A stretch of 64,000 bases of DNA from Deltaproteobacteria bacterium (GCA_033763315.1 JANRKS010000040.1:1-64000), one strand, 5' to 3'. Numbered from the stretch's first letter, positions 1 to 19,460 are shown. A program made the numbers and translations. Notes: a model not told the origin generated them from the sequence alone.

Positions 1-39
1 AGCACCGCAAAAACTAGATTCGCCAAGCAGAGCGCCGCC

Positions 40-171
40 GCCCAACCCGGCCTTCAAGTCTGACAGTGCCGCGAGCGTCACTTTGAACCTAGACATGGCA
101 GTGGAATGCGAGCGACAATGCGGTCTTTGGGCCTCATCGGGCACTGCAGCTTAAGGCCCATCACGTTGGGC
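40..171 (+). repeat. attC site (integron cassette recombination site)
   Basis: R'' GCCCAAC at 40-46 and R' GTTGGGC at 165-171 are perfectly complementary; inner CCTTCAAG/CTTAAGG L boxes; interior nearly identical to 4726-4854. Confidence 0.9.
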
Positions 172-208
172 GGACGAAGGTAGCCGCACTAATTGGAAAG
201 CCATCTGT

Positions 209-946
209 ATGCGTCACGGAGATCGAAGAATACGCATCCGTAGTCTCGTAAAGTTCTTGGTGTTGCCCACGACACTCGCGGTGACGTTTCCTCATAGAGC
301 TATTGGAGGTCGTGTCTGCGAAATTCCTCCTCCGTTGCGTTTCTCAGATGAGAACAAACATCAGCCGGAACTCGCTCGGCCCGACCTCATTGCCAGACTT
401 ACGGCCTACAAGTTCACGGAAGCGAAGGACGGCCTTGATGCGTTGTTGGTAGGGTTTGCACGTGGCGACGGTCCCGTCGAAGGAAGCTGCAACAACGTGG
501 GCGCATTCAAGTTTTGCCCATCTCCGCGCGATGGCGACGATCACCATAACATGGGGTTCACATTCAGAATCCTGGAGGGACGTCTCCCGGCGGGGCTAGT
601 CTTGCCAGAAGAACCGCTTGCCGTCTCATTTCCGAAAGAACCGACAAGCTTGCCTACCGAGCAATGCGTGAATCTGTACTGGATCGACGATCTAGGTCCT
701 TTTGCCGCCAAAATCAACGTAGTTGTCGTTGATCGGCAAGGACATGAAACCGGCAAATTCGATATCGACGTGAGTGGTCCAGAAGCCCAACGCCGAACCT
801 CCCCCTCAGTGTTTGAAGATTTATGGGAAAATTACGGAAAGCGTACTTTACTACTGATTGTTCTCCTTTTCATCGTGATGGGACTCGTCAGTCGCATACG
901 GTATTACTACCGTGTGGCTTTTGGGAAACGAAAGCGGTCTGAGTAA
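209..946 (+). CDS. cassette-encoded hypothetical exported/membrane-anchored protein
   Basis: 245 aa ORF between two attC sites; N-terminal hydrophobic segment, C-terminal TM helix followed by basic tail. Confidence 0.7.
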   Translation: MRHGDRRIRIRSLVKFLVLPTTLAVTFPHRAIGGRVCEIPPPLRFSDENKHQPELARPDLIARLTAYKFTEAKDGLDALLVGFARGDGPVEGSCNNVGAFKFCPSPRDGDDHHNMGFTFRILEGRLPAGLVLPEEPLAVSFPKEPTSLPTEQCVNLYWIDDLGPFAAKINVVVVDRQGHETGKFDIDVSGPEAQRRTSPSVFEDLWENYGKRTLLLIVLLFIVMGLVSRIRYYYRVAFGKRKRSE

Positions 947-996
947 CAATGGGGACTTGCTCGAGGTTTTCCGACTTAGTTCGGGCGAGCGGCGCC

Positions 997-1127
997 GCCC
1001 ATATCATCGTTCAAGTCCGACCGCGCCCCGGACGTCAATTTGAACGTAGACATGTTTGTGGCTGGCGAGCGACAATGCGATCTGTGGCGTCAGTGAGCGC
1101 ACCGCGGCTGAATTTTGCACGTTAACC
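997..1127 (+). repeat. attC site (R'' slightly degenerate)
   Basis: GCCCATA...GCTGAATTTTGCACGTTAACC; shares GTAGACA...GCGAGCGACAATGCG core with the other copies. Confidence 0.8.
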
Positions 1128-1135
1128 GGACGCCG

Positions 1136-1888
1136 ATGGCATTTCACATACGCACACTTATGTTGGCGATCGCAGTGGGATTGCTGCTTTGGGCTGGCGC
1201 GCGCCACGTTTCAGAGCCGCCTAATGATCCGCTTCGTGAAGTCAAGACCGATAGCGCGCCCGTAGCCGAAGAGGCTGATGTGAGCGCTGACCCGAGGCTA
1301 ACGAGCCGTGTCCATAGCGGCGGCACACAGCCCACGCGGCCAATCAGGAATCGCCCCGCTAACCTGTCATACCCAGGCATCGACGAACGGCTCAGGGCCA
1401 GCGCTCTCAACGCTCACGAAAGCGAGCCAAGAGACGTAACCTGGGCACCCGCGATGGAAGCGGCGTTTGGGTCAAGGCTGACAAAAGAGGAGCTGTCAAA
1501 ATACGGGTTGGCAGAGCTGCGAATTACAGAACTGTCGTGCAAACGCGTTACATGTCGGCTCGCGTACGAGTACCCAGCGAGTGTCGAGGATGTTCTCGCG
1601 GCTAACGGACTGCCACGACACATTTCTCCGCTAGCGCTTATCGAGGAGCAGACGGGTCCTCCTGCGCCAGTAAACCTTGGTTGGAGCCGCGAAGTCGTGG
1701 AACGCGATGGCCGGCGCCTGATGCGAATGATGGCCGTATTCGGATTTGACGACAATTCATACGATCCGGAACAATACGCCGATTGGGTTGAGAGCAAGGC
1801 CGAAGAAGCACGTGAAGCGTTCGGCCGTATGCCTAGAAGTTGGCCATCACCCGTAGACCCAGAGCGATCCGATCTCGATGCCGGCTAA
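1136..1888 (+). CDS. cassette-encoded hypothetical protein with N-terminal TM/signal
   Basis: ATG 9 nt after the attC R' box; stop TAA lies in GGCTAAC (1883-1889), complementary to the cassette start GTTAACC. Confidence 0.75.
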   Translation: MAFHIRTLMLAIAVGLLLWAGARHVSEPPNDPLREVKTDSAPVAEEADVSADPRLTSRVHSGGTQPTRPIRNRPANLSYPGIDERLRASALNAHESEPRDVTWAPAMEAAFGSRLTKEELSKYGLAELRITELSCKRVTCRLAYEYPASVEDVLAANGLPRHISPLALIEEQTGPPAPVNLGWSREVVERDGRRLMRMMAVFGFDDNSYDPEQYADWVESKAEEAREAFGRMPRSWPSPVDPERSDLDAG

Positions 1889-1989
1889 CTCACGCCCCTC
1901 ATGCCCTGAGGCGGACCGCACATCGGTTGGTAGACAAGACAGCGTGGATCATCGCTGTGTGGCACGACACCAGCTGCCACGCGAACCCA

Positions 1990-2270
1990 AATAGAAGTCG
2001 ACTTGATTCTCTGCTCAGGCGAAGCATTTAGCTGGCAGACCGTGCCGCGCTCATCTTCCTGGCAACGGAGGCGCCCCGTGCTCCAGTCACTCAGTGGCCG
2101 GGTAGCGCCATTCGCGTCACTGCCGACGGGCCGTTCCCCGATGCCACTGTAAAGGCCTCGTTGGAACTTCCGGAAGCCCTGCCATTGGACGCAATCGGCC
2201 ACTACGTCTACACAAGCAGTACAAACGGCTTCACCGTCTTTGCGGCCACCGATGTCAGGCACTTGGGCGT
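1990..2270 (+). pseudogene. decayed paralog of the 5579-5986 cassette gene
   Basis: Translates NRSRLDSLLRRSI* then LIFLATEAPRAPVTQWPGSAIRVTADGPFPDATVKASLELPEALPLDAIGHYVYTSSTNGFTVFAAT, aligning to 5579-5986 with an internal deletion and a stop. Confidence 0.8.
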
Positions 2271-2317
2271 GGAGCGCCATCGACCTCGAGAAAGGCCTGG
2301 CTGCATTCTATTTCTTT

Positions 2318-2428
2318 CCAGCCAAGCCGTGGAAGCCATTTTTCAACCTGGACGCCACAATGTGTTGCGGGCAACATTGGGGCGTTCGGCATTGATGGCT
2401 TTTGCAGCTTAACGCCGATCCGTTGGCC
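2318..2428 (+). repeat. degenerate attC site
   Basis: 3' half GCAGCTTAACGCCGATCCGTTGGCC resembles the end of 40-171; CAACCTGGACG core resembles 4037-4047; left end eroded, start approximate. Confidence 0.65.
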
Positions 2429-2443
2429 ACCGAGGGGATCAGG

Positions 2444-3007
2444 ATGAAACGCAGAAAACTGCTTGGTGAAGGCATCTTGCATACGTTGGGTTTCGTTTCA
2501 GCGTGTAAGCGGCAGCAGCCTCACGCGAGCAGAGATTTGACGAAGGACTCGTTGATGGACTACGACATAAAAATCGCGGAGGTTCCCGAGCAGCTCATTG
2601 CGGTAGCAAGGGAGCGCACGAAAATGAGTCTGATTTCGCGAGACATTCAGCGGCTCTTGGATGCCCCGTGGGCCTTGATAAGGCAACGTGGCGATCTGCG
2701 CACGGATGGACATAACGTCGCGGTCTACTTGCAATGGGATCCGAACGGCGCGGTCGAGGTCGGCGTTCAGATTGTCCGAAGATTCGATGCAACCGATCTG
2801 GTCGTGTGTTCCGCGACGCCGGCGGGGCGAGTCGCCGCCACAACGCACTTCGGCCCGTACGAACGGTTGGTCCATGCGCACAACGCAACTAGGGAATGGT
2901 GTGCGAAGCACGGGTACAAGCCCGCCGGGCCCGCTTGGGAGATCTACGGTGACTGGAACAATGATCCCCAGAAGATTCGGACCGATGTCCATGTGCTTCT
3001 CGCGTAG
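2444..3007 (+). CDS. GyrI-like small-molecule binding domain protein
   Basis: GRVAATTHFGPYERL and GPAWEIYGDW motifs typical of GyrI-like proteins; alternative start ATG 2555 with GAAGGA RBS. Confidence 0.85.
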   Translation: MKRRKLLGEGILHTLGFVSACKRQQPHASRDLTKDSLMDYDIKIAEVPEQLIAVARERTKMSLISRDIQRLLDAPWALIRQRGDLRTDGHNVAVYLQWDPNGAVEVGVQIVRRFDATDLVVCSATPAGRVAATTHFGPYERLVHAHNATREWCAKHGYKPAGPAWEIYGDWNNDPQKIRTDVHVLLA

Positions 3008-3009
3008 GG

Positions 3010-3135
3010 CGGACGCCAGGGTTCTGCGGAATCTGACTTTGAAGGCCGGCAATATTGTGGTCGCCGTCGCGAACCTCGACACGGCACTGATTTCCGCGCA
3101 ACAATGTAGCCGGCCGCCGTCGGCCGCGGCGATTG
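3010..3135 (+). repeat. strongly degenerate attC remnant
   Basis: GAACCTCGACACGGCACTGATTTCCGCGCAACAATG (3071-3106) aligns to the attC core; R boxes not recognisable, boundaries approximate. Confidence 0.5.
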
Positions 3136-3138
3136 CGT

Positions 3139-3828
3139 ATGGCGTTTCGACGAAACACTGCATTCTTGGCACTTGCTTGCGCGGCGTGGGGCGTAAGTTG
3201 CGCCGACGTTTTTCATCCGTATCAGAGCACGTCCGTCTTGCGAGGCTGGGCGGTGGTAATTGCTGCTTTCGGTATCGCCGCTCTGTCGGTGTATCTTGTC
3301 CGCTACCGCAGTGAGCGCTCGGCGAAGCGAGGGCTCGCTGTTTCCGTCGCCTCCATCGGGGCGTTTCTTGCCGGCGGTTTCGCTCGGCCGTGGGTGGCGT
3401 CGGCAATTTGGGACGTTCGATGTTCAAGCAAAACAGACATCAGGCATTGTTACCAAGCGGCGATGGAAATAGGCGCGTTTCAAAATTCAGGCAACGATTG
3501 GCTAGGCCGGCAATGTATCGGAAGCGAGATCCCGTATACCGTGTGTCGGTTTTCACCAATAAGGGACGAACGATCGTGCGGAGCCGTTGCAAGCGAATGC
3601 GCAGCCTGGGCAACGCGAATGATTCCGCGACCATTTGCAGCCGCAATCTGTGAGGAGTGGCAGGACAGCTGTCGAGATCTCCGTGCCGCCGGATGGCCAG
3701 TCGCGCGGCAACCTGGACCAGTGAATCCGAGAAGCTGGCCACCCCCTTTTTTGTCGCCAGCTGACCCAAAAATTCCAGGCTGGTTAAGGACCAAGGCCGA
3801 TTCCTCAATAGATGAAAATGGCAGATAA
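3139..3828 (+). CDS. cassette-encoded membrane protein (about 3 TM, Cys-rich C-terminal part)
   Basis: ORF with hydrophobic segments, same orientation as the array, flanked by attC remnants. Confidence 0.6.
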   Translation: MAFRRNTAFLALACAAWGVSCADVFHPYQSTSVLRGWAVVIAAFGIAALSVYLVRYRSERSAKRGLAVSVASIGAFLAGGFARPWVASAIWDVRCSSKTDIRHCYQAAMEIGAFQNSGNDWLGRQCIGSEIPYTVCRFSPIRDERSCGAVASECAAWATRMIPRPFAAAICEEWQDSCRDLRAAGWPVARQPGPVNPRSWPPPFLSPADPKIPGWLRTKADSSIDENGR

Positions 3829-3829
3829 A

Positions 3830-3910
3830 CGCGCGATTTCTGTGCAGTAGACTAGACACGTTAGTAGCTCGAGAGCGACAATGCGGTTACGCGGCCGTGT
3901 GCGTTGACGC
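3830..3910 (+). repeat. degenerate attC remnant
   Basis: CTAGACACGTTAGTAGCTCGAGAGCGACAATGCGG (3852-3886) is the attC-family core; boundaries approximate. Confidence 0.55.
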
Positions 3911-3993
3911 TGGCTAACCGGCCGCTGCAAGGGATGAACACAACAAGCGTTCGCTGCAACGCAGCTCATAGCACTGGTGTTTGAAGCCCCGCT

Positions 3994-4120
3994 GCACAAC
4001 CGATCGTTTCAGCTGACAAAGCGTGGGCGGCATCTACAACCTAGACACGCTCGCGGCTTTGCAACACCATTGGTGTTGTTCACGCTGCTGGGCTTTGCAA
4101 CTGAACTTTGCACGTTGAGC
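3994..4120 (+). repeat. attC site
   Basis: GCACAAC...GTTGAGC ends; TTTCAG/CTGAA L boxes; conserved TTTGCACGTT terminus. Confidence 0.85.
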
Positions 4121-4180
4121 AGACGGCAGAAGCCCCAGGAAATGCAAACGCCACGTCCACGTGTTAAGCTTCAATGCATC

Positions 4181-4426
4181 GTGGCAAACGCATTGCAGAT
4201 TCCGCCGGCAGGTTTCGAGGAACTTTCAGTCGAAGACCAAGTCGACTACGTGCAAGCCTTGTGGAACAGGATTGCTGAGCGTCCCGAACGGCTTCCCATC
4301 TCGGACGAAACACGGGAAATGCTCGAACAGCGCTTGGCCGCTCACCGTGCAGCCCCAGATGAAGCCAGGCCATGGGACGAGGTTCGTGAAGAGATCCATG
4401 CGGCCCTGCGTGCACGCCGCAAATGA
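4181..4426 (+). CDS. putative addiction module antitoxin (TIGR02574-like)
   Basis: LSVEDQVDYVQALW...LEQRLAAHRAAP...PWDEVR signature; ATGA overlap with the toxin; own TG-n-TAAGCT -10 at 4162-4170. Confidence 0.85.
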   Translation: MANALQIPPAGFEELSVEDQVDYVQALWNRIAERPERLPISDETREMLEQRLAAHRAAPDEARPWDEVREEIHAALRARRK

Positions 4427-4712
4427 AACTCGTAGTACGTGATGAGGCGTTGCTCGACGTCGTTGAGGCTTCGCTAGCGTATGAGGACGAACGCGAAGGG
4501 TTGGGGTGGGACTTCGAAGGCGAAGTTGACCGCGTGATGTCTCGAATCGCTGAGAATCACCTCCAGTTCGCCGATCGCTTTTCTGGAATACGTTTGGCCC
4601 TAACCCGCCGGTTCCCGTACGGTGTTTTCTTTGCGGTTGATGAGCGTTAAATCACGGTCATTGACGTTCACCATCTTCACCGCATGCCCGGTCATGGAGA
4701 CATCGACTGTAG
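4423..4712 (+). pseudogene. parE: ParE/RelE-family toxin, inactivated
   Basis: YEDEREGLG, RFPYGVFF motifs; premature TAA 4648-4650; in-frame continuation ITVIDVHHLHR, then apparent frameshift into SWRHRL*. Confidence 0.75.
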
Positions 4713-4725
4713 GTCTCACGCAGCT

Positions 4726-4854
4726 GCCCAACCCTTCATTGCAGCAGACAGTGCCGCGAACGTCACCTTGATCCTAGACAGGGCAGCGGAATGCGAGCGA
4801 CAATGCGGTCTTGGTGATTCAGTGGGGTCCGCAGCTGAATTTTGCACGTTAGCT
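4726..4854 (+). repeat. attC site
   Basis: GCCCAAC...GTTAGCT; interior nearly identical to 40-171; R'' complements the TA cassette start GTTGAGCAG. Confidence 0.9.
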
Positions 4855-4866
4855 TGGCAGGCCTGA

Positions 4867-5385
4867 ATGTTCTGGAGCCGTGAGAACCGAAAGCGCCTGA
4901 GGGTACACTTAAATGGGCCTGTGCCGACCTTTGCTGCGACCCTCCTTTTCGCGGCGGCGGTGGCGACGGCACTCCGAATATCGTGGAACCCGGGCCTCCA
5001 GAGCTACGTGGAATACGTTCCCATCAGCGGCCTTTTTGCCGCTTTCGTCTTGGAGCGCATCGTCGTCTATGACAGAAGATTAGGGCTTACTACCGTCGTA
5101 TGCGACGTCCTCGTTATCGTTCTGGCGTTGATGCGAGTTCTCGTTCCCCCGTTGCCATTTGTGTCCGGGCACTCCCTATTCTCGGCTTACGCATTCACGA
5201 CGCCCTGTCGATGGCATCTTCGCGCAGTCGCGCTCGTTGTACTGGCACAGGTCGCGTACGTGAAACTCGTGCTGACGGGAGGGATGGTGTCCATGGTACT
5301 GGGGTTCGCAGCGGCGGCACTTCTCGCCTTCGTCAGGCACGCGGCAGAGAAGAGTGTCGTGGCGGAACTCGATTCCGCCGGCTAA
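4867..5385 (+). CDS. cassette-encoded multi-TM membrane protein
   Basis: 172 aa, hydrophobic, conserved-looking PFVSGH motif; stop lies inside R''-like GGCTAAC (5380-5386). Confidence 0.8.
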   Translation: MFWSRENRKRLRVHLNGPVPTFAATLLFAAAVATALRISWNPGLQSYVEYVPISGLFAAFVLERIVVYDRRLGLTTVVCDVLVIVLALMRVLVPPLPFVSGHSLFSAYAFTTPCRWHLRAVALVVLAQVAYVKLVLTGGMVSMVLGFAAAALLAFVRHAAEKSVVAELDSAG

Positions 5386-5514
5386 CAATATGGAGAGCCG
5401 GTGGATGAGGCGATCCCTGAGTGTCCCAGCCCATGTTTGAGATATGCTCTAGTTCGGACGAATGAAGAGGCTGGGTGGGCCCGAATGAGCCAGAATCTGG
5501 GGCAGCCACACCCA

Positions 5515-5560
5515 GGCTAAGTGATCATTGCAGCAGGCGGTGTTAATTTGCACGTTATGC
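5515..5560 (+). repeat. internally deleted mini-attC
   Basis: GGCTAAGTGATCATTGCAGCAG (cf. GCCCAACCCTTCATTGCAGCAG at 4726) joined almost directly to AATTTGCACGTTATGC. Confidence 0.6.
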
Positions 5561-5578
5561 CGATACGCAGGTCTTGTA

Positions 5579-5986
5579 ATGCGAAGGGTTGAACTCGACG
5601 CACTTCTTCAGCGGCGTTTTCCTAGTGCCAGCTTTCACGACTCCGAGTTGCGATCAATGACCGTAGACTGGACGGGCAGGCGCGCGTGTTTGGCGTTCGA
5701 GATGAACGTGGAACGGAAAACCCACAAATTCGGGATCCTCGAGCTTGATGGTCTGTTCTTCTTGGCCACCGAGGCCCCCACTGCGCCGACCTCTGAGTGG
5801 CTGGGGCGCCCTCTTCGCATCACTGCCGAGGGATCGTTTCCCAACGCCGCGATCAAGACGTCGCTAGAACTGCCGGGCGACCTGCCATCGGACGCCATTG
5901 GCCATTATTTTTACGCCAGCAATACCAACGGCTTCACCGTGTTTGCGGCGACGACTATTGGATTTCTTTGGTGCGAAGGCACATGA
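5579..5986 (+). CDS. cassette-encoded hypothetical protein (FHD motif)
   Basis: ATG shortly after GTTATGC; decayed paralog at 1990-2270 supports a real gene family. Confidence 0.75.
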   Translation: MRRVELDALLQRRFPSASFHDSELRSMTVDWTGRRACLAFEMNVERKTHKFGILELDGLFFLATEAPTAPTSEWLGRPLRITAEGSFPNAAIKTSLELPGDLPSDAIGHYFYASNTNGFTVFAATTIGFLWCEGT

Positions 5987-6573
5987 CTTCCGCATTCGAA
6001 TGGGAAGAAGCGATACCCACGATCAAATACGGAGACGTAGAACTTAGCAGGCTTACCGAGGGCGACGTGCCGGCGCTGTTCGAGATATTCGGACACCCCG
6101 AGGTGATGCGCTACTGGAGCACGCCGCGGCTCCACGATGAGGCGGCTGCGGCAGCCTTATTGAACGACATCCATGAAGCGTTTCGGACTCGTCAACTGTT
6201 TCAATGGGGCGTTCGGATCCGCGGAACCGCAAAGGTTGTGGGTACGTGCACCTTGTTCAATCTGGATTTCGCGCATCGCCGGGCAGAGATCGGCTTTGCC
6301 GTTGCCCGTCGTGAGTGGCGCCAAGGCATCGCTACCAAAGCGACGAGAGCCCTTATTGAATTCGCGTTCGAACGCCTCGACTTACATCGGCTCGAAGCCG
6401 ACGCTGATCCGCGAAATTCAGCATCGCTTCGCGTGCTCGAGCGTCACGGGTTCCGACGCGAGGGCCATCTGCGAGAGCGATACCACCAAGGTGGCGAGAT
6501 ACAGGACGCACTCATCCTGGGGCTTCTTCGGCGAGAATGGGACGGCCCCGCCCATGAGGTCGGCATTGACTGA
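5983..6573 (+). CDS. RimJ/RimL-family GNAT acetyltransferase
   Basis: AEIGFAV...WRQGIATKA...LHRLEADADPRNSASLRVLERHGFRREG motifs. Confidence 0.92.
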   Translation: MTSAFEWEEAIPTIKYGDVELSRLTEGDVPALFEIFGHPEVMRYWSTPRLHDEAAAAALLNDIHEAFRTRQLFQWGVRIRGTAKVVGTCTLFNLDFAHRRAEIGFAVARREWRQGIATKATRALIEFAFERLDLHRLEADADPRNSASLRVLERHGFRREGHLRERYHQGGEIQDALILGLLRREWDGPAHEVGID

Positions 6574-6912
6574 GCGATCATTTATCCATTCCAAGCACCG
6601 AGCAGCCTACCTTGGAGCTGTGTTGTACTTTTTATCGGGCAGCTTTGGTCGGGCAGACGACGCCATCCCACCAAACGACCGAGCGCAATTAATTGTCGGC
6701 TCACTGCGCGGGCTAGAAGCTTGGCGCTATGATGGCGGTGGCAAGCGCATCATCAGCAAGATCGTTGCACTCAAACCTCGGTGGCTGGACGCAGGCGTCG
6801 TACTGGTGTTGATGGCCATCTAGATCCGCAGAAACTTGGCCATGGTGGCCCCAAAGTCAGGAAATTAGGCGCCGAGGCAGTGGCGGCTTAAAAGCCTGCG
6901 CTCAAGCTCGAG

Positions 6913-6965
6913 AAAAAAAAACGAGGGCCCACCCCAAGCTTGTGACTAGGCAAAGGCGGGCCCTC
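6913..6965 (-). terminator. putative intrinsic terminator/hairpin in IS leader, minus strand
   Basis: GAGGGCCC (6923-6930)/GGGCCCTC (6958-6965) stem next to A9 at 6913-6921 (U-tract on minus strand). Confidence 0.5.
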
Positions 6966-7043
6966 ACGAAACGCTTTCGCGTCGGGGCAGATGGTGGTCC
7001 TTTCGCGAAGCGTTGTCCAGTTTTTGATCATTCCCGAGCGGGG

Positions 7044-7709
7044 ATGGACGACTGGATGGATGAGCTGGTTTTGATTGAGCTTCTTTGCGGCACCTGCCGC
7101 TCAATCTTTCACGTCTGCGAGAGTGACTATCGAGGCCACCGCTACTGCCAAGAGATGTGTCGGGGCCGTGGGCAGCGTCAGGCCCGGCGAGCCGCCAACG
7201 ACCGGCACCAGCGTTCAGCCGAAGGCCGCGCTGACCATCGCGACCGTAACCGTGCGTTGCGCAAACGCAAGAGTGCCGCCACAAGCGTGACGGATATGGG
7301 TTCAAAAGAATTTGACCGCGTGGCCTCTTTGCCCTCGCCAGAGCGCTTGCCCGTAGCCATGGAGGTTGCAGTGCAAAGCGAAGGCGAAGGAAAGAACGAT
7401 GAAGCCGTACAAATTGATGGTGTCTTCGATGCAAGGCCGGATGCGGTTGTTGCTCCTGGACGAGACAGACGAGATCTTGAAAGCAGAGCTGCCGAGCGGG
7501 TATTTCCCGCGTCACCCACGCGCGATGACGACGTTGCTCGAAGGCTTGTCGATGTTCCTCTGCGCCAAGCTGCACGTTGTTGTGTCTGCGGATGTATTGG
7601 ACGATTTATATTGCCTGGATTTCGTGGACGGGCTGGGCGGCGCGGCCCCCAGCGTGTTTTTCGAGGTCGAGATCGCCCCACGGCTGCGGCGGCCCGGACG
7701 GCGAATTAA
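7044..7709 (+). CDS. IS-associated Cys/Arg-rich (Zn-ribbon-like) accessory protein
   Basis: CGTC...C.SDYRGHRYC..MC followed by an Arg-rich helix; lies inside the IS ends; 3' half overlaps the next ORF. Confidence 0.65.
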   Translation: MDDWMDELVLIELLCGTCRSIFHVCESDYRGHRYCQEMCRGRGQRQARRAANDRHQRSAEGRADHRDRNRALRKRKSAATSVTDMGSKEFDRVASLPSPERLPVAMEVAVQSEGEGKNDEAVQIDGVFDARPDAVVAPGRDRRDLESRAAERVFPASPTRDDDVARRLVDVPLRQAARCCVCGCIGRFILPGFRGRAGRRGPQRVFRGRDRPTAAAARTAN

Positions 7710-7770
7710 AGGTGTGGGCCACTTTCGTGACCTGAAGCAATTGCACCTTTGTACAGGGTGGCCACGATGA
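7399..7770 (+). CDS. IS-associated accessory protein
   Basis: GAAGGA RBS; stop overlaps istA start (ATGA). Confidence 0.75.
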   Translation: MKPYKLMVSSMQGRMRLLLLDETDEILKAELPSGYFPRHPRAMTTLLEGLSMFLCAKLHVVVSADVLDDLYCLDFVDGLGGAAPSVFFEVEIAPRLRRPGRRIKGVGHFRDLKQLHLCTGWPR

Positions 7771-9233
7771 CCATCTCAATCGAAATGGAAGCTGAGATCG
7801 TGCGCCTTTGCCGCGCTGAAGGCTGGCCCGTGGGCACCATCGCTACGCAGCTTGGTGTTCATCATGATGTCGTCGAGCGCGTGCTCGGTCTGCAGCCACT
7901 GCGGGATGATCAGCGTCCACCTTTGCTCATCGAGGCTTACAAAGGCTTCATCAAGGAAACCTTGGATCTGTATCCCAAACTCTGTGGCACACGTGTTTTC
8001 GACATGATTGCCTCGCGTGGCTACAAAGGCAGCATGCGCACGTTGAGTAGGCATTTGCTCGAGGTGCGTCCCATGCCAAGGCGCGAAGCTTATCTGCGAA
8101 TGGATCCGTTGATTGGCGAGCAAGCGCAGATCGATTGGGCGCATGTTGGTACGGTGGATGTGCCGGGCGGCAAACGAAGCCTTTGGCTTTTCGTAATTGT
8201 GCTTTCGTGGTCGCGAGCACAGTGGGGCGAGTTCGTCTTCGACTTAACGGCGGACTCTTTGTTGCGGTCGCTGGTTCGTGCAGCCGAGTACTTCGGCGGC
8301 ACCTGCCGCCAGTGGTTGTTCGACAATCCAAAGACGGTGGTGCTCGAACGCTTCGGCCAAGCCACACGGTTTCATTCGCTGCTTCTTGATACCGCGGGAA
8401 AATTCAACGTACAGCTGCGCGTCTGCGGCGTCCGCAAAGCAAATCAAAAAGGCCGCGTCGAGCGTGCCATCAGGTGGTGGCGCGACCGCTTCTTGGCCGC
8501 GCGTACAATCCGCACCATCGAGCAAGGCAATCGTGAGCTTAACGAATTTTTGCAAACCATCGTTCTTGATCGCCCTCACCCCACAATACCCAGCCAAACC
8601 GTGAGGGCATGTTTTGAAAAAGAGAAGCTTGCAATCCTGAGGTTGCCAGACACGATGCCCGCCATCACCGTGCCCACGCCGGTGGCAGTCGACAAAACAG
8701 CGTTCATTCGCCTCGATACGAATTCCTATTCAGTGCCTCCGTGCTTCGTCGGCCAAACACTGACGATGTCGGCTTGCGACCAAACCGTGCGCGTGCTCGA
8801 TTCTCGCGGCCTGATGGTGGCGCAGCACAAACGCTCTTGGGGGCGGCGGCAAGTGATTGAAGATCCTGCGCATCGTGAAAGCCTGTTGACGGTCAAGCGA
8901 GGCGCAAGAGAAAGCAAAGGACGAGATAGGCTACGTGTGGTCACGCCACAAATTGATGTACTCGTGGACAGGTGGGTGGAAGCTGGCGCAAATATCGGCA
9001 GCGTTATCTCACGCACCGTCAAATTGCTCGACACCTATGGCCCTGACATCTTTGCCGCGGCGATTAACGATGTCGTCGAGCGCGGCATCTGGGATGTCGG
9101 CGCCATTGCTCAGGGGTGCGAGCAAAAACGCATTGCCACTGGCTTACCAGTGCCAGTCGCAATTGCGTTTGGTGAAGGCGTCAAAGACCGCCACGTGAAG
9201 CCTCACTCATTGGAGAGCTACGATGACATTTGA
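7767..9233 (+). CDS. istA: IS21 DDE transposase IstA
   Basis: N-terminal HTH; GEQAQIDW, LFDNPK, KGRVER DDE motifs; NSYSVP. Confidence 0.95.
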   Translation: MTISIEMEAEIVRLCRAEGWPVGTIATQLGVHHDVVERVLGLQPLRDDQRPPLLIEAYKGFIKETLDLYPKLCGTRVFDMIASRGYKGSMRTLSRHLLEVRPMPRREAYLRMDPLIGEQAQIDWAHVGTVDVPGGKRSLWLFVIVLSWSRAQWGEFVFDLTADSLLRSLVRAAEYFGGTCRQWLFDNPKTVVLERFGQATRFHSLLLDTAGKFNVQLRVCGVRKANQKGRVERAIRWWRDRFLAARTIRTIEQGNRELNEFLQTIVLDRPHPTIPSQTVRACFEKEKLAILRLPDTMPAITVPTPVAVDKTAFIRLDTNSYSVPPCFVGQTLTMSACDQTVRVLDSRGLMVAQHKRSWGRRQVIEDPAHRESLLTVKRGARESKGRDRLRVVTPQIDVLVDRWVEAGANIGSVISRTVKLLDTYGPDIFAAAINDVVERGIWDVGAIAQGCEQKRIATGLPVPVAIAFGEGVKDRHVKPHSLESYDDI

Positions 9234-9987
9234 TCCTGCAGACGCGCTCGCTTCGATTGGAATTCGTGCACCCAAGCCCACGATCAAAGCGTTCTTTGCT
9301 GAGGCCACGAAGGTGCGCTGGTCCCCGGTGCAGGTTTGCGAAAAGCTTGTGGCTCTAGAACGCCGCGAGCGAGACGCGTGCAATCTTGCACGTCGTACCC
9401 GCTCCGCCACCATCGGTCCCTGCGCCACATTAGATACGTTCAATTGGTCGCATCCACGCAGCATCGATCGCGAGGTGTACGACGAGCTCTTGCTACTCGA
9501 CTTCTTGAAGCTTGGTCAGAATGTGCTTTTTCGCGGTCCAAGCGGCGCGGGTAAAACGATGCTCGCGCAAAACCTCTGTCTCGCTGCATTGGCGGCTGGC
9601 CACCGCGTTCGCTTCGTGACCCTGGCTTCTGCCCTCGCCGATTTGCTGCGCCAAGAATCTTTGCCGGCATTCGAGCGCCGCGTGAAGCGATACACGGATC
9701 CAGATCTACTCGTGCTTGACGAGCTGGGTTATGTGCCCGCCGACTCACGGGGAGCTGACATCCTTTATAACGTCATCACGCGCCGGCATAAAGCTCGGTC
9801 AACGATCATCACGACCAATCTTGCCTTCAAAGAATGGGGGCCAGTGTTTCCAAGCGCTGCCTGCGTGGGTGCGCTCGTGGACCGCTTCACCGAACAGTGC
9901 CATTTCGTAGACATTGATGCGGACTCGTGGCGCCAGAGAAACGCGCTAAAGCGATCGGCGAGCGCGCATTCGGCGCGCAAGCGCTAA
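9223..9987 (+). CDS. istB: IS21 helper ATPase IstB
   Basis: Walker A GPSGAGKT, Walker B LLVLDELGY, STIITTNL..EW, ALVDR. Confidence 0.95.
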   Translation: MTFDPADALASIGIRAPKPTIKAFFAEATKVRWSPVQVCEKLVALERRERDACNLARRTRSATIGPCATLDTFNWSHPRSIDREVYDELLLLDFLKLGQNVLFRGPSGAGKTMLAQNLCLAALAAGHRVRFVTLASALADLLRQESLPAFERRVKRYTDPDLLVLDELGYVPADSRGADILYNVITRRHKARSTIITTNLAFKEWGPVFPSAACVGALVDRFTEQCHFVDIDADSWRQRNALKRSASAHSARKR

Positions 9988-10912
9988 GCCGTCCCCGCTT
10001 AACCAGGCCCGGTCGCTCGCCACGACAGGGCCTTTCTTTCGCTCTGCCATGGCCGGATTTCCGCGGATCTGCGTGGCCGTCTACATACTGGCTATTCATC
10101 CGGAAAACTCCGCAGATCTCTCAAGGGGTGGCAGCATTGATCGCATAGTGATCGACACTGGAGATCGTGCGCCTATAGCCAAGCTGCCACCTTTTGTGTG
10201 CGCTGACGCTTCTCTGAAGGTCTTTCCGTCGGTTGCGCTTAACATCCAAGATCCCGGAGACTTTCGCATCGACCGCAAAAAAGGCTGGGCTTGCATAACG
10301 CTGATGGATCGAAATATCAACGCAGCTTCGCTGCTGTTGGACATTCGCGTCGATCTCAAGAGCGGCAACGTTGCGCGACACGTATCGGTTGGTGAGTTTT
10401 CTTGCCGCCCCCCCGATGGAGTAACCACGGGCGCGAAGGCGGCGGACACGTGCGGGTCTCAATCGAGGGCTAGCGCGACGGCCTCTCAACAGAAACGCTA
10501 TGCATTCTCGTTCAGGACGGGCAATGTCATGAAGAGTGTAAAAGGTCGTCCGCAGAAGGTGCTTCGCATCAACGAGTACGAGCAGGAGGCGCTTTCACCG
10601 TCAGGTCGTTGGGCATTGCTCAGCGGCGATCAGAGTGATGGCGACTACATTCACCGCCAGCTCGTTCTGCTGGATCGTGAAACCGGACAAATTTTCCCTA
10701 TCCATGGCAGTCCCGGCGCTTGGCCCTCTGCGCTAGAGCCGGTGGCAGGAAGCTCCTTGCGAATCGAAGTTCCGATTGCAAACACCATTGGCGTCGTCGG
10801 CGAGTCAGATGTTCGGTGGCTGGGGACCTCGGCCGAATCGGAGGTGCTGGTAATCGACGATCTGATCATTGTGCCACGACGTGAGTCCTTCTCTGTCAAT
10901 GGTGCCGTCGCC

Positions 10913-11030
10913 CGCTAACCTCAAGTCCGCGGTCCATCACGGCATCGACTTGAAAAGCCTGCCGACGTTTATGGCAAACTAGACACGCGAACAGGGCGAA
11001 GCCACGATGCGCGTTGCAGGCGGCCGAAAC
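10913..11030 (+). repeat. degenerate attC remnant
   Basis: CGCTAAC containing the upstream stop; AACTAGACACG...CACGATGCG core at 10977-11011; right end uncertain. Confidence 0.5.
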
Positions 11031-11204
11031 GTGGGCGTAGCCCTGGTGCCGTCTTTCAGCTCATGATCGCGCTAAACAACTATGGTGAGCAACCATTCGG
11101 CAACCGTCGTTCGATGTCTATCGCCGACGTTGCTGAGAATATCGAGCTGGCGAAGCGCTATCTCGCCCAGCTCGACGCCAATTCGGAGGTCGCCGGTTAA
11201 CCCG

Positions 11205-11630
11205 ATGCCCAAGACCATGGAGTCGTGGGTAGCAAAGGAGTGGCGTGCCCTCGGGTTCTATTTCTACCGAGACACCGTTTGTCGTGAATACAGGTTCGTG
11301 GGCTCACGCGAAGGGCTTCGACAATTTGGTGCACTGCTTATGGCCTACGGTCTGAACCCGAACAATGCTGACGAATCAGAACACGAACATCACGATCCAT
11401 TCGGTTCGCTCAAGATAATGACGTTGACCTTCCCACGGATCGATGACGACGCGATATCTGGAACACTGGATGACCTTCGCCGGTGGGCAAGTATTGTTTC
11501 TGAGAAACTGGATGTCGCCGTTGTGGGGGAAAAGATTCGAATTTCCGAGGAGTACACACGCTCCAGCCAGTACATCTTGATCCTTGATGTTCGTGAGGAC
11601 GGATTCGATCCGGCCGCTGCCGAGGCTTGA
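11205..11630 (+). CDS. conserved-looking hypothetical protein (cassette type)
   Basis: EWRALGF...GSREGL...SEHEH...VREDGFDP; starts right after GCCGGTTAAC. Confidence 0.75.
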   Translation: MPKTMESWVAKEWRALGFYFYRDTVCREYRFVGSREGLRQFGALLMAYGLNPNNADESEHEHHDPFGSLKIMTLTFPRIDDDAISGTLDDLRRWASIVSEKLDVAVVGEKIRISEEYTRSSQYILILDVREDGFDPAAAEA

Positions 11631-11663
11631 CACTCTCGTGTCACATCGGTGAGGCTGTCCCCT

Positions 11664-12311
11664 ATGTTCAAACGTTCGCTTGTGATGATGATTGCGCTGG
11701 TCGCCACTTTGCAACACGTACGGCACGCACGCGCCAACGACGCACAGCCATCGCCACCGTCGTTCGCTTGGCTTCCCGCCGGGGCGGCCGCGTTCGGTTT
11801 GGGCGTATACCTGAACCTGAGCGCGGCTGCTGACTTCAAGGATGGGAACGACGATTGCGCGAAGCTGTTTACGGGCTGTAATACGCGATCAATTGGAGGT
11901 GGCCTGTTGATACTTGGCGGTCAGGCGCTCATGGCCACCTATGGTTGGAAGTTGGGCACGTATGGATCCTCTCTTAACGAAGAGCCACCGGGTGCGCTCA
12001 GTAAAGTGGCGCTGGTTTTCGCTGCGGTGGGGTTCACAACGTCTCTCGTCGCAGGCGCGTACTCCGTTGTGAAGGCACTTGGATGCACGGAGGGGGACGA
12101 CCGCCACATATCCTCTGCCTGTGCAGGAGATACGCTCTACAAGGCAACTCTGGTTCAAACTGTTGGTCAAGGCGTTCTGTTCGCAGCGGCGCCCTTCGCT
12201 GCTTACGGTTTTGGTTACAGAGTGCATGAGCGCAAAAAACGCGAGCTTGTGCTTTTACCTATGTCACCAGCGGGCGGTGGCATGGGTTTGATGGCGGCAT
12301 CGGCTTTTTAG
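11664..12311 (+). CDS. hypothetical membrane protein with signal peptide
   Basis: Signal-like N-terminus (HARA), several Gly-rich hydrophobic segments, C-terminal Phe. Confidence 0.7.
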   Translation: MFKRSLVMMIALVATLQHVRHARANDAQPSPPSFAWLPAGAAAFGLGVYLNLSAAADFKDGNDDCAKLFTGCNTRSIGGGLLILGGQALMATYGWKLGTYGSSLNEEPPGALSKVALVFAAVGFTTSLVAGAYSVVKALGCTEGDDRHISSACAGDTLYKATLVQTVGQGVLFAAAPFAAYGFGYRVHERKKRELVLLPMSPAGGGMGLMAASAF

Positions 12312-19349: not shown

Positions 19350-19441
19350 AACCTTTCATTTGGCCGCACCCAAACCTTTCATTTGGACGCACCACAACCT
19401 TTCATTTGGCCGTAGCCAAACCTTGCATTTAGCCGCAGGCA
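19350..19441 (+). repeat. 4 x 23 bp tandem direct repeat
   Basis: Units AACCTTTCATTTGGCCGCACCCA, AACCTTTCATTTGGACGCACCAC, AACCTTTCATTTGGCCGTAGCCA, AACCTTGCATTTAGCCGCAGGCA. Confidence 0.9.
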
Positions 19442-19460
19442 GGGGTTACATTGTATCTCG

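What the first reader, a model, noticed from the sequence alone, without database searches (positions are those of the whole stretch)
40..11010. attC sites each carry a conserved sigma70-like promoter facing the next cassette
Seen: the attC loop region holds TAGACA-N18-GACAAT at 90-119, 1047-1076, 3853-3882 and 4775-4804. Variants are TCGACA-N18-AACAAT (3076-3105), TAGACA-N17-CACCAT (4042-4070), TAGACA-N17-CACGAT (10980-11008) and TGGACG-N17-CAACAT (2349-2377). The hexamers and the 17-18 nt spacing are kept while spacer sequence largely varies, and the motif survives in copies whose R/L boxes have eroded. Known: cassettes are usually promoterless and depend on Pc, so distal ones are mostly silent; the attC terminal loop is normally unconstrained. 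Inference: each attC doubles as a promoter, making a self-expressing array in which a cassette drives its downstream neighbour, and decayed attCs persist as promoters. I do not know this as a standard integron feature.
Basis: partly seen in the sequence, partly recalled or inferred. Interest (0 to 1): 0.85.

Follow-up and report, generated by a model that had tools for sequence, protein, structure and literature searches.

The report
Promoter-like motif inside integron attC repeats
The repeated recombination sites of a chromosomal integron in a soil-type bacterium carry a conserved central sequence that looks like a weak promoter pointing at the next gene cassette, but the sequence evidence cannot show that it works as one.

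Summary
All eight motif instances sit at the stated coordinates. They lie in the centre of a ~137-nt attC family with canonical arms. This genome holds 37 copies, and the family also occurs in 3 of 40 relatives and in metagenomes. An integron integrase lies next to the same repeats on another contig.

Points for a promoter:
- It is a 9/12 sigma-70 match, always on the cassette-sense strand. Chance per 137 nt is about 0.6%.
- The host's tRNA promoters use this consensus.
- No consensus hairpin pairing explains the motif.
- 5' leaders are too short for cassette-borne promoters.

Points against:
- Conservation is not hexamer-specific. Flanking AACC, GC and GCGGTCTTG are as conserved or more so.
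- Non-consensus positions are as fixed as consensus ones, and no copy has TTGACA.
- Spacing is 18, against the host's usual 16-17.
- 15 of 64 non-redundant copies lack the motif.
- Five other chromosomal attC families have conserved sequence but no such motif.

No RNA data exist, so function is undecided. I put a selected promoter at about one in three.

The parts
37..175 (+). Full attC, main subfamily. R'' is GCCCAAC at 40-46 and R' is GTTGGGC at 165-171. The -35-like TAGACA is at 90-95 and the -10-like GACAAT at 114-119.
   Evidence: nhmmer model positions 1-137, E 6e-34. The bottom strand folds at -31.2 kcal/mol, z -3.0. Motif found.
994..1131 (+). Full attC, main subfamily. TAGACA at 1047-1052 and GACAAT at 1071-1076. 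R' is GTTAACC at 1121-1127.
   Evidence: sequence read.
2313..2429 (+). Diverged attC (model positions 14-134) with TGGACG-N17-CAACAT at 2349-2377. It fails the promoter criterion.
   Evidence: no hit for C40_2292_2440; sequence.
3028..3109 (+). Left half of an attC (model positions 6-86); the right arm is missing. TCGACA-N18-AACAAT at 3076-3105. The next ORF starts about 30 nt later.
3852..3911 (+). Fragment holding only the attC centre (model positions 52-114) with TAGACA-N18-GACAAT at 3853-3882.
3991..4124 (+). Full attC of the second subfamily. TAGACA-N17-CACCAT at 4042-4070. Here CACCAT lies in a 7-bp local hairpin (CAACACC/GGTGTTG).
4723..4853 (+). attC of the main subfamily with a poorly pairing stem. 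TAGACA-N18-GACAAT at 4775-4804.
   Evidence: The whole-site fold has z +1.77.
5517..5560 (+). attC remnant without the central module. The left arm (model positions 6-31) is joined directly to the right end (TTAATTTGCACGTTATGC).
   Evidence: Local alignment; sequence.
10960..11056 (+). Heavily decayed last attC of the array, with TAGACA-N17-CACGAT at 10980-11008.
   Evidence: It was not found by nhmmer at E <= 0.01.
209..6573 (+). Cassette ORFs, all on the attC-sense strand: 209-946, 1136-1888, 2444-3007 (GyrI-like), 3133-3828, 4142-4426 (TIGR02574 addiction-module component), 4423-4650, 4867-5385, 5579-5986, 5983-6573 (GNAT). Gaps from R' to the start codon are about 8-37 nt.
   Evidence: The gaps were read; the start codons are not verified.
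7749..9987 (+). IS21-family insertion in the array (istA 7749-9233, istB 9223-9987).
   Evidence: Pfam rve, Mu-transpos_C_2 and IstB_IS21.

Best explanation
The motif instances are the middle of a lineage-specific ~137-nt attC family. The family belongs to a sedentary chromosomal integron in a probable Polyangia (Myxococcota) genome.

The arms are canonical. They have an R''/R' core and a covarying L-box stem, with two extra bases on the left arm. These are the parts that work in integrase recombination.

TAGACA and GACAAT lie in an unpaired central region of about 70 nt. They are pieces of two longer blocks, TTTGAACCTAGACA and GC-GACAATGCGGTCTTGG. The blocks flank a hypervariable patch near the site's midpoint.

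I infer that the blocks are kept as exact sequence by purifying selection on something other than RNA-polymerase recognition. The likeliest candidates are the behaviour of the large loop in the folded single-stranded recombination substrate, or a factor that reads these blocks.

The sigma-70 resemblance (9 of 12, spacing 18) is real and may give weak outward transcription as a by-product. Shown: family membership, anatomy and the conservation pattern. Inferred: the reason for the conservation.
For: **The sites are canonical attC.**
- Covarying pairs are 20-115, 22-113, 23-112, 24-111, 28-108, 29-107 and 30-106.
- IntI scores 441.6 bits against a TIGR02249 cut-off of 265. It lies beside the same repeats on contig C27.

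**Conservation is block-wise, not hexamer-wise** (63 non-redundant copies).

| Region | Bits per column |
|---|---|
| AACC, just upstream of the '-35' | 1.55 |
| '-35' hexamer | 1.46 |
| GC at 75-76 | 1.63 |
| Columns 83-91 | 1.20 |
| '-10' hexamer | 1.04 |

**Conserved positions do not match sigma-70 needs.**
- Non-consensus positions are as fixed as consensus ones: A54 in 58/63 and C79 in 56/63.
- No copy of 64 has TTGACA.
- In 44 copies of the main subfamily, defined without using the hexamers, the key -11 A changes 4 times. Its neighbours change 4-5 times. Spacer G71, C72 and C76 change 1-2 times.

**The motif is weak by host standards.**
- Host tRNA promoters have TTGAC at -35 and mostly 16-17 nt spacing. 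The attC motif has TAGACA and 18.
- 15 of 64 copies have no motif at that place.

**Other families show conservation without a motif.** Five other chromosomal attC families, taken from IntI loci I already held, show conserved sequence. This includes a ~125-nt family with a conserved centre. None has a 9/12 motif on the sense strand: 0 of 50 copies.

**Literature.** The review PMC8876359 (passages) states that chromosomal-integron attCs are near-identical species-specific repeats.
Against: **No structural constraint was found in the centre.**
- There is no consensus pairing on either strand.
- There is no covariation beyond subfamily linkage.
- The block1/block2 complementarity is no better than shuffles: 106 of 200 shuffles reach it.
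- Main-subfamily centres fold worse than shuffles, z +0.7 to +2.2.

**The module is not needed for a site of this arm type.** Metagenomic attCs with the same right arm have short, unrelated centres.

**Features that fit a promoter.**
- A 9/12 match on the sense strand of a 137-nt element has a chance of only about 0.6% at this genome's density.
- Two blocks at a fixed distance around a variable patch is how a bipartite recognition site looks.
- The motif is never on the antisense strand (0 of 64).
- Cassette 5' leaders of about 8-37 nt leave no room for cassette-borne promoters. This includes an addiction-module cassette.

No candidate binding factor is identified.
Confidence: 0.45

Rival explanations
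1. The central module of the main attC subfamilies is a selected, weak sigma-70 (SigA) promoter that fires towards the downstream cassette. Transcripts would start around model columns 88-92. They would carry only the right arm of the attC, so they could not form the full attC hairpin. Any cassette placed behind such an attC would get basal expression independent of Pc.
For: - TAGACA-N18-GACAAT passes the tool's sigma-70 criterion (9/12, A2, T6) at 5 places in window 1-12000.
- 27 of 64 non-redundant copies pass at the aligned place, and 49 of 64 pass a loose 8/12 criterion. All are on the sense strand and none on the antisense strand.
- Genome-wide density of such matches is 909 per 15.3 million strand-positions. 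That gives P about 0.006 for one strand of a 137-nt element.
- The host uses this consensus. 15 of 37 tRNA upstream regions reach 9/12 or better, against 44 of 2000 random 150-mers. One tRNA-Gly has TAGACA as its best -35.
- The second subfamily keeps xAxxAT one base closer (N17), through two substitutions.
- The centre lacks secondary structure.
- Leaders from R' to the start codon are only about 8-37 nt, including before a TIGR02574 addiction-module cassette.
- Precedents in print:
  - A sigma-70-type promoter bridges the cassette 20-21 attC in Vibrio sp. DAT722 (PMC2945992, passages).
  - 5' RACE found starts within the attC of cassette F2 (PMC11014356, passages).
Against: - There is no transcript evidence.
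- Conservation is not focused on the hexamers or on their critical positions.
- The T-to-A at -35 position 2 and G at -10 position 1 are kept rather than drifting to consensus. Only 3 of 13 substitutions at the non-consensus positions go towards consensus, where about a third would by chance (my arithmetic).
- The 18-nt spacing is the rare class among the host's tRNA promoters: 1 of 11 with a score of 9 or more.
- In the second subfamily, CACCAT lies inside a local hairpin in the window copy.
- 15 of 64 copies lack the motif.
- A V. cholerae cassette cloned with its own attC showed no promoter activity (cassette C7, PMC11014356, passages). So attCs are not promoters in general.
Confidence: 0.33
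2. The conserved blocks act at another level. One possibility is a binding site for a regulator or architectural protein of the array. The other is an element of the polycistronic mRNA. One concrete mRNA form is a short ORF starting at the conserved ATG that overlaps GACAAT (model columns 81-83). It would help ribosomes pass the attC stem, as proposed for short ORFs in attI and attC sites.
For: - The blocks are conserved as exact sequence well beyond what a promoter needs.
- A81, T82 and G83 are among the most conserved positions of block 2 (2, 1 and 4 changes in 44 copies).
- 41 of 63 copies have ATG there. In 21 of 63 it opens an 11-codon frame ending at the TGA/TAA of the right arm.
- The review PMC8876359 (section 3.2 passages) describes short ORFs in attC sites as a proposed aid to translation of downstream cassettes.
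- G-T pairs, tolerated only in the sense strand, are frequent at candidate pairs 55-88, 57-86, 65-71 and 66-70.
Against: - The frame and its stop are not consistent. 22 of 63 copies lack the ATG, 14 run on without a stop in the stretch examined, and 6 stop elsewhere.
- The following codons show no third-position pattern.
- The Shine-Dalgarno sequence is weak.
- No binding factor is identified.
- No Rfam family matches.
Confidence: 0.12
3. There is no selection on the centre at all. The blocks only reflect descent of all cassettes' attCs from one template, with uneven mutation. The promoter likeness is chance.
For: - Chromosomal-integron attC families are generally homogeneous (PMC8876359, passages).
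- Other families also show conserved sequence without any promoter-like motif.
- Promoter-like 9/12 matches do occur by chance: 4.2 expected per 12 kb in the tool's shuffles.
Against: - Divergence is extremely uneven within a few bases: 0-3 changes against 17-25 changes in 44 copies.
- The same blocks are kept across four genomes.
- They are also kept in metagenome copies that were picked by their right arm alone: 11 of 12 carry TAGACA.
- Subfamilies are shared between species, so the copies are old.
Confidence: 0.1

Closest known systems
Homogeneous attC repeats of sedentary chromosomal integrons (for example the V. cholerae repeats, VCRs)
   Same: - Length above 120 nt and many copies.
- High sequence similarity over the whole site, including the central region.
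- One copy after each mostly unknown-function cassette ORF.
- Canonical R/L arms (review PMC8876359).
   Different: - A different sequence family, found here only in this genus, one sister genus and Polyangia-titled records.
- intI is co-directional with the cassettes.
- A VCR-bearing control cassette (C7) showed no promoter activity in V. cholerae (PMC11014356). This family carries a 9/12 sigma-70 match.
Sigma-70-type promoter bridging the attC between cassettes 20 and 21 of Vibrio sp. DAT722 (Michael and Labbate 2010, PMC2945992)
   Same: A promoter-like sequence that overlaps an attC and faces the next cassette. It was proposed to explain expression far from Pc (passages).
   Different: That is one junction, localised by nested PCR and qPCR. 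It is not a motif conserved across the attC family. [quoted passage not shown]
Transcription starts inside the attC of gene-less cassette F2, and promoter cassettes of Vibrionaceae superintegrons (Blanco et al. 2024, PMC11014356)
   Same: Transcript 5' ends were mapped within an attC. The paper concludes that arrays are not silent and hold many internal promoters (passages).
   Different: The authors suggest possible spurious transcription in AT-rich DNA. Promoter activity there belongs to particular cassettes, not to the attC repeat as such.
Cassette-borne promoters in 5' leaders (cmlA, qacE, ereA, qnrVC1, toxin-antitoxin cassettes)
   Same: Pc-independent expression of cassettes (review PMC8876359, section 2.3 read in full).
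   Different: Those promoters lie between R' and the start codon of the same cassette and move with it. Here the leaders are only about 8-37 nt. The candidate motif sits in the preceding cassette's attC.

Membership tests
Integron attC recombination site | Inverse core R'' (RYYYAAC) and core R' (GTTRRRY) at the two ends | tested here: met
   Columns 8-10 are AAC in 25-27 of 27-28 copies. Columns 127-129 are GTT in 28-30 of 30 own-genome copies. Example: GCCCAAC at 40-46 and GTTGGGC at 165-171.
Integron attC recombination site | Imperfect hairpin with a second (L) box, supported by compensatory changes | tested here: met
   Pairs 20-115 (AT 25, CG 24), 22-113 (GC 37, CG 9), 28-108 (AT 30, GC 16), 29-107 (AT 36, GC 19) and 30-106 (AT 31, TA 10, CG 3) in 63 copies. 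The bottom strand of 37-175 folds with z -3.0.
Integron attC recombination site | Extrahelical bases that mark the recombined strand | tested here: met
   Between the paired columns the left arm has one extra base twice, near columns 19 and 25-27. These appear as bulges in the folds. Their role was not tested.
Integron attC recombination site | One site after each cassette ORF in the same orientation, and an integron integrase next to the array | tested here: met
   All cassette ORFs in 209-6573 are on the attC-sense strand. IntI scores 441.6 bits against a cut-off of 265 at C27:4470-5411, with three family copies at C27:127-1393. The window's own array is on a different contig from intI.
Integron attC recombination site | Recombination by IntI | not testable with these tools
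   This needs an excision or integration assay.
Sigma-70 (housekeeping) promoter | -35 and -10 hexamers near consensus at 17 +/- 1 nt | tested here: met
   9/12 with A2 and T6 at spacing 18, in 27 of 64 non-redundant copies. The match is weak by host standards, which favour TTGAC and 16-17 nt.
Sigma-70 (housekeeping) promoter | Conservation concentrated on the positions that RNA polymerase reads (TTG of -35; -11 A and -7 T of -10) | tested here: not met
   Flanks are as conserved as the hexamers or more so. Non-consensus A54 and C79 are fixed. The -11 A (4 changes in 44) is no better kept than its neighbours. Only the -7 T (1 change) fits.
Sigma-70 (housekeeping) promoter | A transcription start 5-9 nt downstream of the -10, and activity lost on hexamer mutation | not testable with these tools
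   No RNA holder is listed for window 1-6600.

The most novel reading that the evidence does not exclude
A whole attC family of a myxobacterial chromosomal integron carries a built-in outward promoter in its unpaired loop. Every cassette, wherever it is shuffled, would land behind a basal promoter. Its mRNA would start inside the loop and so would lack the left arm that would otherwise form the translation-blocking attC hairpin. The array would then be self-expressing rather than a silent store. The extra conserved bases around the hexamers would be regulatory, for example a discriminator or leader.
Probability: 0.3. Interest if true: 0.75.

Novelty: new member of a known kind. Interest (0 to 1): 0.4.

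Why it matters
How cassettes far from Pc are expressed in large chromosomal integrons is an open question. Published work finds scattered cassette-borne promoters and occasional starts in attC sites.

A promoter built into the recombination site itself would change the picture of arrays as mostly silent stores. It would also tie recombination and expression to one element.

Even if it is not a promoter, this family is useful. Its ~70-nt loop holds two blocks under strong sequence constraint, with no pairing to explain them, while related arms work with short unrelated loops. That makes it a clean case for asking what constrains attC centres.

Tried and rejected
**Expression data.** The look-up of sequencing runs on window 1-6600 listed no RNA holder.

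**Known RNA families.** There was no Rfam match in window 1-12000 at E <= 1.

**Hairpin explanation of the hexamers.**
- RNAalifold on 21 full copies, and on 30 main-subfamily copies, on both strands and with RNA and DNA parameters, gave pairs only in the outer stem.
- Single-copy folds gave no consistent partner for columns 45-95.
- The candidate inner stem (CC/GG, AGAC/GTCT, GCA/TGC) is compatible in most copies. It shows no clean compensation apart from GC/CG at 61-84, which follows subfamily.
- Its complementarity is matched by 106 of 200 shuffles.

**Internal duplication of the L arm as the origin of block 1.** The best direct self-match was reached by 34 of 200 shuffles.

**Other sigma factors.** Sigma-54 and ECF-type readings of the centre were considered by eye from recalled consensus motifs. 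I rejected them because the spacing does not fit. No tool test was made.

**A home-made attC finder (cores plus fold energy).** It found 1, then 6, sites in window 1-12000. It also called many sites in ordinary DNA, so I abandoned it. Self-BLAST repeat families replaced it. Of the 80 IntI loci held, only those of at least 6 kb were searched. Only 5 yielded a family of 4 or more copies, so that control is small.

**Pc-like motif at the platform.** No TAGACA/GACAAT-type site lies between intI and the first cassette on C27.

**The same attC family in 80 loci around distant IntI relatives.** Only one weak hit (E 0.32) appeared.

**Tools and files not available.** Supplementary files of the papers were not opened. 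Figure 8 of PMC2945992 and the supplements of PMC11014356 could bear on where exactly the published attC-associated promoters lie.

In one search, the ORF at 4142-4426 was given one base out of frame, so its blank Pfam result means nothing. It was redone in frame.

Full report
**What is there.**
- Window 1-11,060 is the distal end of an integron cassette array.
- Iterative nhmmer from three window copies finds 37 copies of one ~137-nt repeat in the 7.63-Mb genome. They lie at the starts or ends of contigs C1, C27, C32, C39 and C40, and as a 15-kb run in C16.
- The repeat starts with GCYGSCYAAC and ends with CACGTTRRSC.
- Its arms pair with clear compensatory changes. Examples are 20-115 (AT 25, CG 24) and 29-107 (AT 36, GC 19). 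The left arm carries two extra bases.
- All cassette ORFs are on the same strand as the repeat.
- An integron integrase (TIGR02249, 441.6 bits, cut-off 265) lies at C27:4470-5411. It is co-directional with three copies at C27:127-1393. A second tyrosine recombinase gene lies between them.
- These are therefore bona fide attC sites of a sedentary chromosomal integron.
- The closest IntI in species-representative genomes is 68% identical, in a record titled Polyangia. The same attC family turns up in Polyangia- and Polyangiaceae-titled records. The host is thus probably a member of the Polyangia.

**The observation.**
- All eight motif instances are at the stated coordinates.
- They occupy model columns 53-58 (TAGACA) and 77-82 (GACAAT), in the middle of the attC.
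- I collected 93 copies: 37 from this genome and 56 from fetched regions of two congeners and one sister genus. That is 3 of 40 relatives searched.
- 78 of them cover the centre, and 64 remain after removing copies 90% or more identical.
- Motif counts among the 64 non-redundant copies:

| Feature | Copies of 64 |
|---|---|
| Exact TAGACA | 45 |
| Exact GACAAT | 28 |
| 9/12 sigma-70 criterion at the aligned place | 27 |
| Loose criterion (8/12 with A2 and T6) starting at column 53 | 49 |
| Any such match on the other strand | 0 |
| Nothing at that place | 15 |

- The copies without a motif are mainly a third subfamily (CCAAGATGGGTCTTGG ... GCATGAGGGGTTGTG).
- A second subfamily has TAGACA-N17-CACCAT or TAGACA-N17-CACTAT.

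**Is it explained by pairing or by recent duplication?** No.
- Copies are 63-89% identical.
- Consensus folding of either strand gives pairs only in the outer stem.
- No covarying Watson-Crick pairs involve columns 45-95, apart from subfamily-linked 61-84 and 78-89.
- A plausible inner stem (CCTAGAC with GTCTTGG) is no better than shuffles: 106 of 200 reach it.
- The 71-75-nt centres of three main-subfamily window copies fold worse than their shuffles on both strands, z +0.7 to +2.2.
- Metagenomic contigs were picked only by the right arm. They gave 12 full family members, 11 of them with TAGACA. They also gave short attCs with the same arms and unrelated centres.
- So the central module is a lineage-specific addition that this kind of arm does not need.

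**Does it look like a promoter of this host?** Partly.
- Of 37 tRNA upstream regions, 15 have a 9/12 or better sigma-70 match, against 44 of 2000 random 150-mers. The consensus therefore applies here.
- At the genome's density of such matches (909 in 15.3 million strand-positions), a 137-nt element has one on a given strand with P about 0.006.
- The host's tRNA promoters have TTGAC at -35 and mostly 16-17 nt spacing. Only 1 of 11 with a score of 9 or more has spacing 18.
- The attC motif has A at -35 position 2, G at -10 position 1, and spacing 18.

**Is the conservation that of a promoter?** No.
- In 63 copies the four bases before the '-35' (AACC, 1.55 bits) are as conserved as the hexamer itself (1.46 bits).
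- The '-10' hexamer (1.04) is less conserved than GC just before it (1.63) and GCGGTCTTG after it (1.20).
- I defined the main subfamily only by columns 83-91, which gave 44 copies. The per-column changes were as follows:

| Column(s) | Role | Changes in 44 |
|---|---|---|
| 77, 78, 79, 80, 81, 82 | '-10' hexamer | 9, 4, 5, 4, 2, 1 |
| G71, C72, C76 | spacer | 2, 2, 1 |
| 59, 61, 65, 67-70, 73-74 | spacer, hypervariable | 11-25 |

- Non-consensus A54 and C79 are as fixed as consensus positions, and no copy has TTGACA.
- Selection therefore keeps exact blocks rather than promoter likeness.
- Five other chromosomal attC families, found by self-BLAST in the IntI loci I held, have conserved sequence. 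One is a ~125-nt family with a conserved pyrimidine-rich centre. None has a 9/12 sense-strand motif: 0 of 4, 4, 24, 7 and 11 copies.

**Circumstantial points for the promoter reading.**
- The gaps between R' and the start codons are about 8-37 nt (read; starts unverified). Cassettes therefore cannot hold their own promoters.
- One such cassette encodes a TIGR02574 addiction-module component.
- A start in the loop would give an mRNA without the left arm, and so without the attC hairpin. The review PMC8876359 (passages) describes that hairpin as a barrier to translation.

**'Decayed attCs persist as promoters'.** This is not supported.
- Of 14 partial hits in the genome, 13 include the centre. 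One-sided truncation predicts much the same.
- A remnant at 5517-5560 has the left arm fused to the right end with no centre.

**Literature.**
- I saw passages of PMC2945992: a sigma-70-type promoter bridging one attC.
- I saw passages of PMC11014356. It reports 5' RACE starts within an attC, possibly spurious. A control cassette with its attC was inactive. [quoted passage not shown]
- From PMC8876359 I read sections 2.3 and 3.5 in full, and passages elsewhere.
- PMC3001079 was seen only as a search listing and abstract start.
- A phrase search for attC-promoter wordings found one unrelated paper. A four-term search found nothing further.
- I found no description of a promoter conserved across a whole attC family. 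These four searches cover only the held library.

**Verdict.**
- The promoter reading is neither shown nor excluded. I give it about one in three.
- A non-transcriptional constraint on the central blocks is somewhat more likely, but no mechanism for it could be shown.

Noticed in passing
window 7749-9987 (and ORF 6942-7709 upstream): An IS21-family element (istA with rve and Mu-transpos_C_2 domains; istB with IstB_IS21) is inserted in the cassette array. Its ends were not mapped.
   Followed up: partly
window 2054-2249 versus 5757-5952: A 196-nt stretch is 74% identical between the region after the second cassette and the ORF at 5579-5986. This looks like a fragment of a paralogous cassette in a decayed part of the array.
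   Followed up: no
window 5517-5560: A mini attC-like remnant: the left arm is joined directly to the right end, with no central module. It lies just upstream of ORF 5579-5986.
   Followed up: partly
attC model columns 81-116 (for example window 118-153): The ATG overlapping GACAAT opens an 11-codon frame. The frame ends at the TGA/TAA of the right arm in 21 of 63 non-redundant copies.
   Followed up: partly
G000 contig C27:1-5411 (loci L008, L031): - intI is co-directional with the cassettes.
- Between intI and the first cassette lie a second tyrosine recombinase gene (Pfam Phage_integrase) and a further long ORF.
- A GTTAGCC junction near C27:1785 may be attI.
   Followed up: partly
ends of contigs C1, C27, C32, C39, C40: Five contigs begin or end in attC arrays. 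The end of C39 and the start of C40 share 102-105 identical bases of one attC. The assembly therefore breaks inside the integron, and the number of arrays is unknown.
   Followed up: no
locus L103:2253-9218 (record titled Holophaga sp.): Seven ~125-nt attC copies have a conserved pyrimidine-rich centre (CTTCTTCTCCCCCGGTCCTCCGCCTGG-like). This is another long attC with an unexplained conserved loop.
   Followed up: no
window 19350-19460: Four to five tandem copies of a 23-nt unit (AACCTTTCATTTGGCCGCACCCA-like).
   Followed up: no
window 59830-60450: Four tandem copies of a 153-156-nt unit, 61-73% identical to the first. This is probably a repeated 52-residue protein module.
   Followed up: no
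window 69-143, 1026-1099, 4754-4824: The centres of main-subfamily attCs fold worse than dinucleotide shuffles on both strands: 154-200 of 200 shuffles fold at least as well. It looks as if structure were avoided there.
   Followed up: partly
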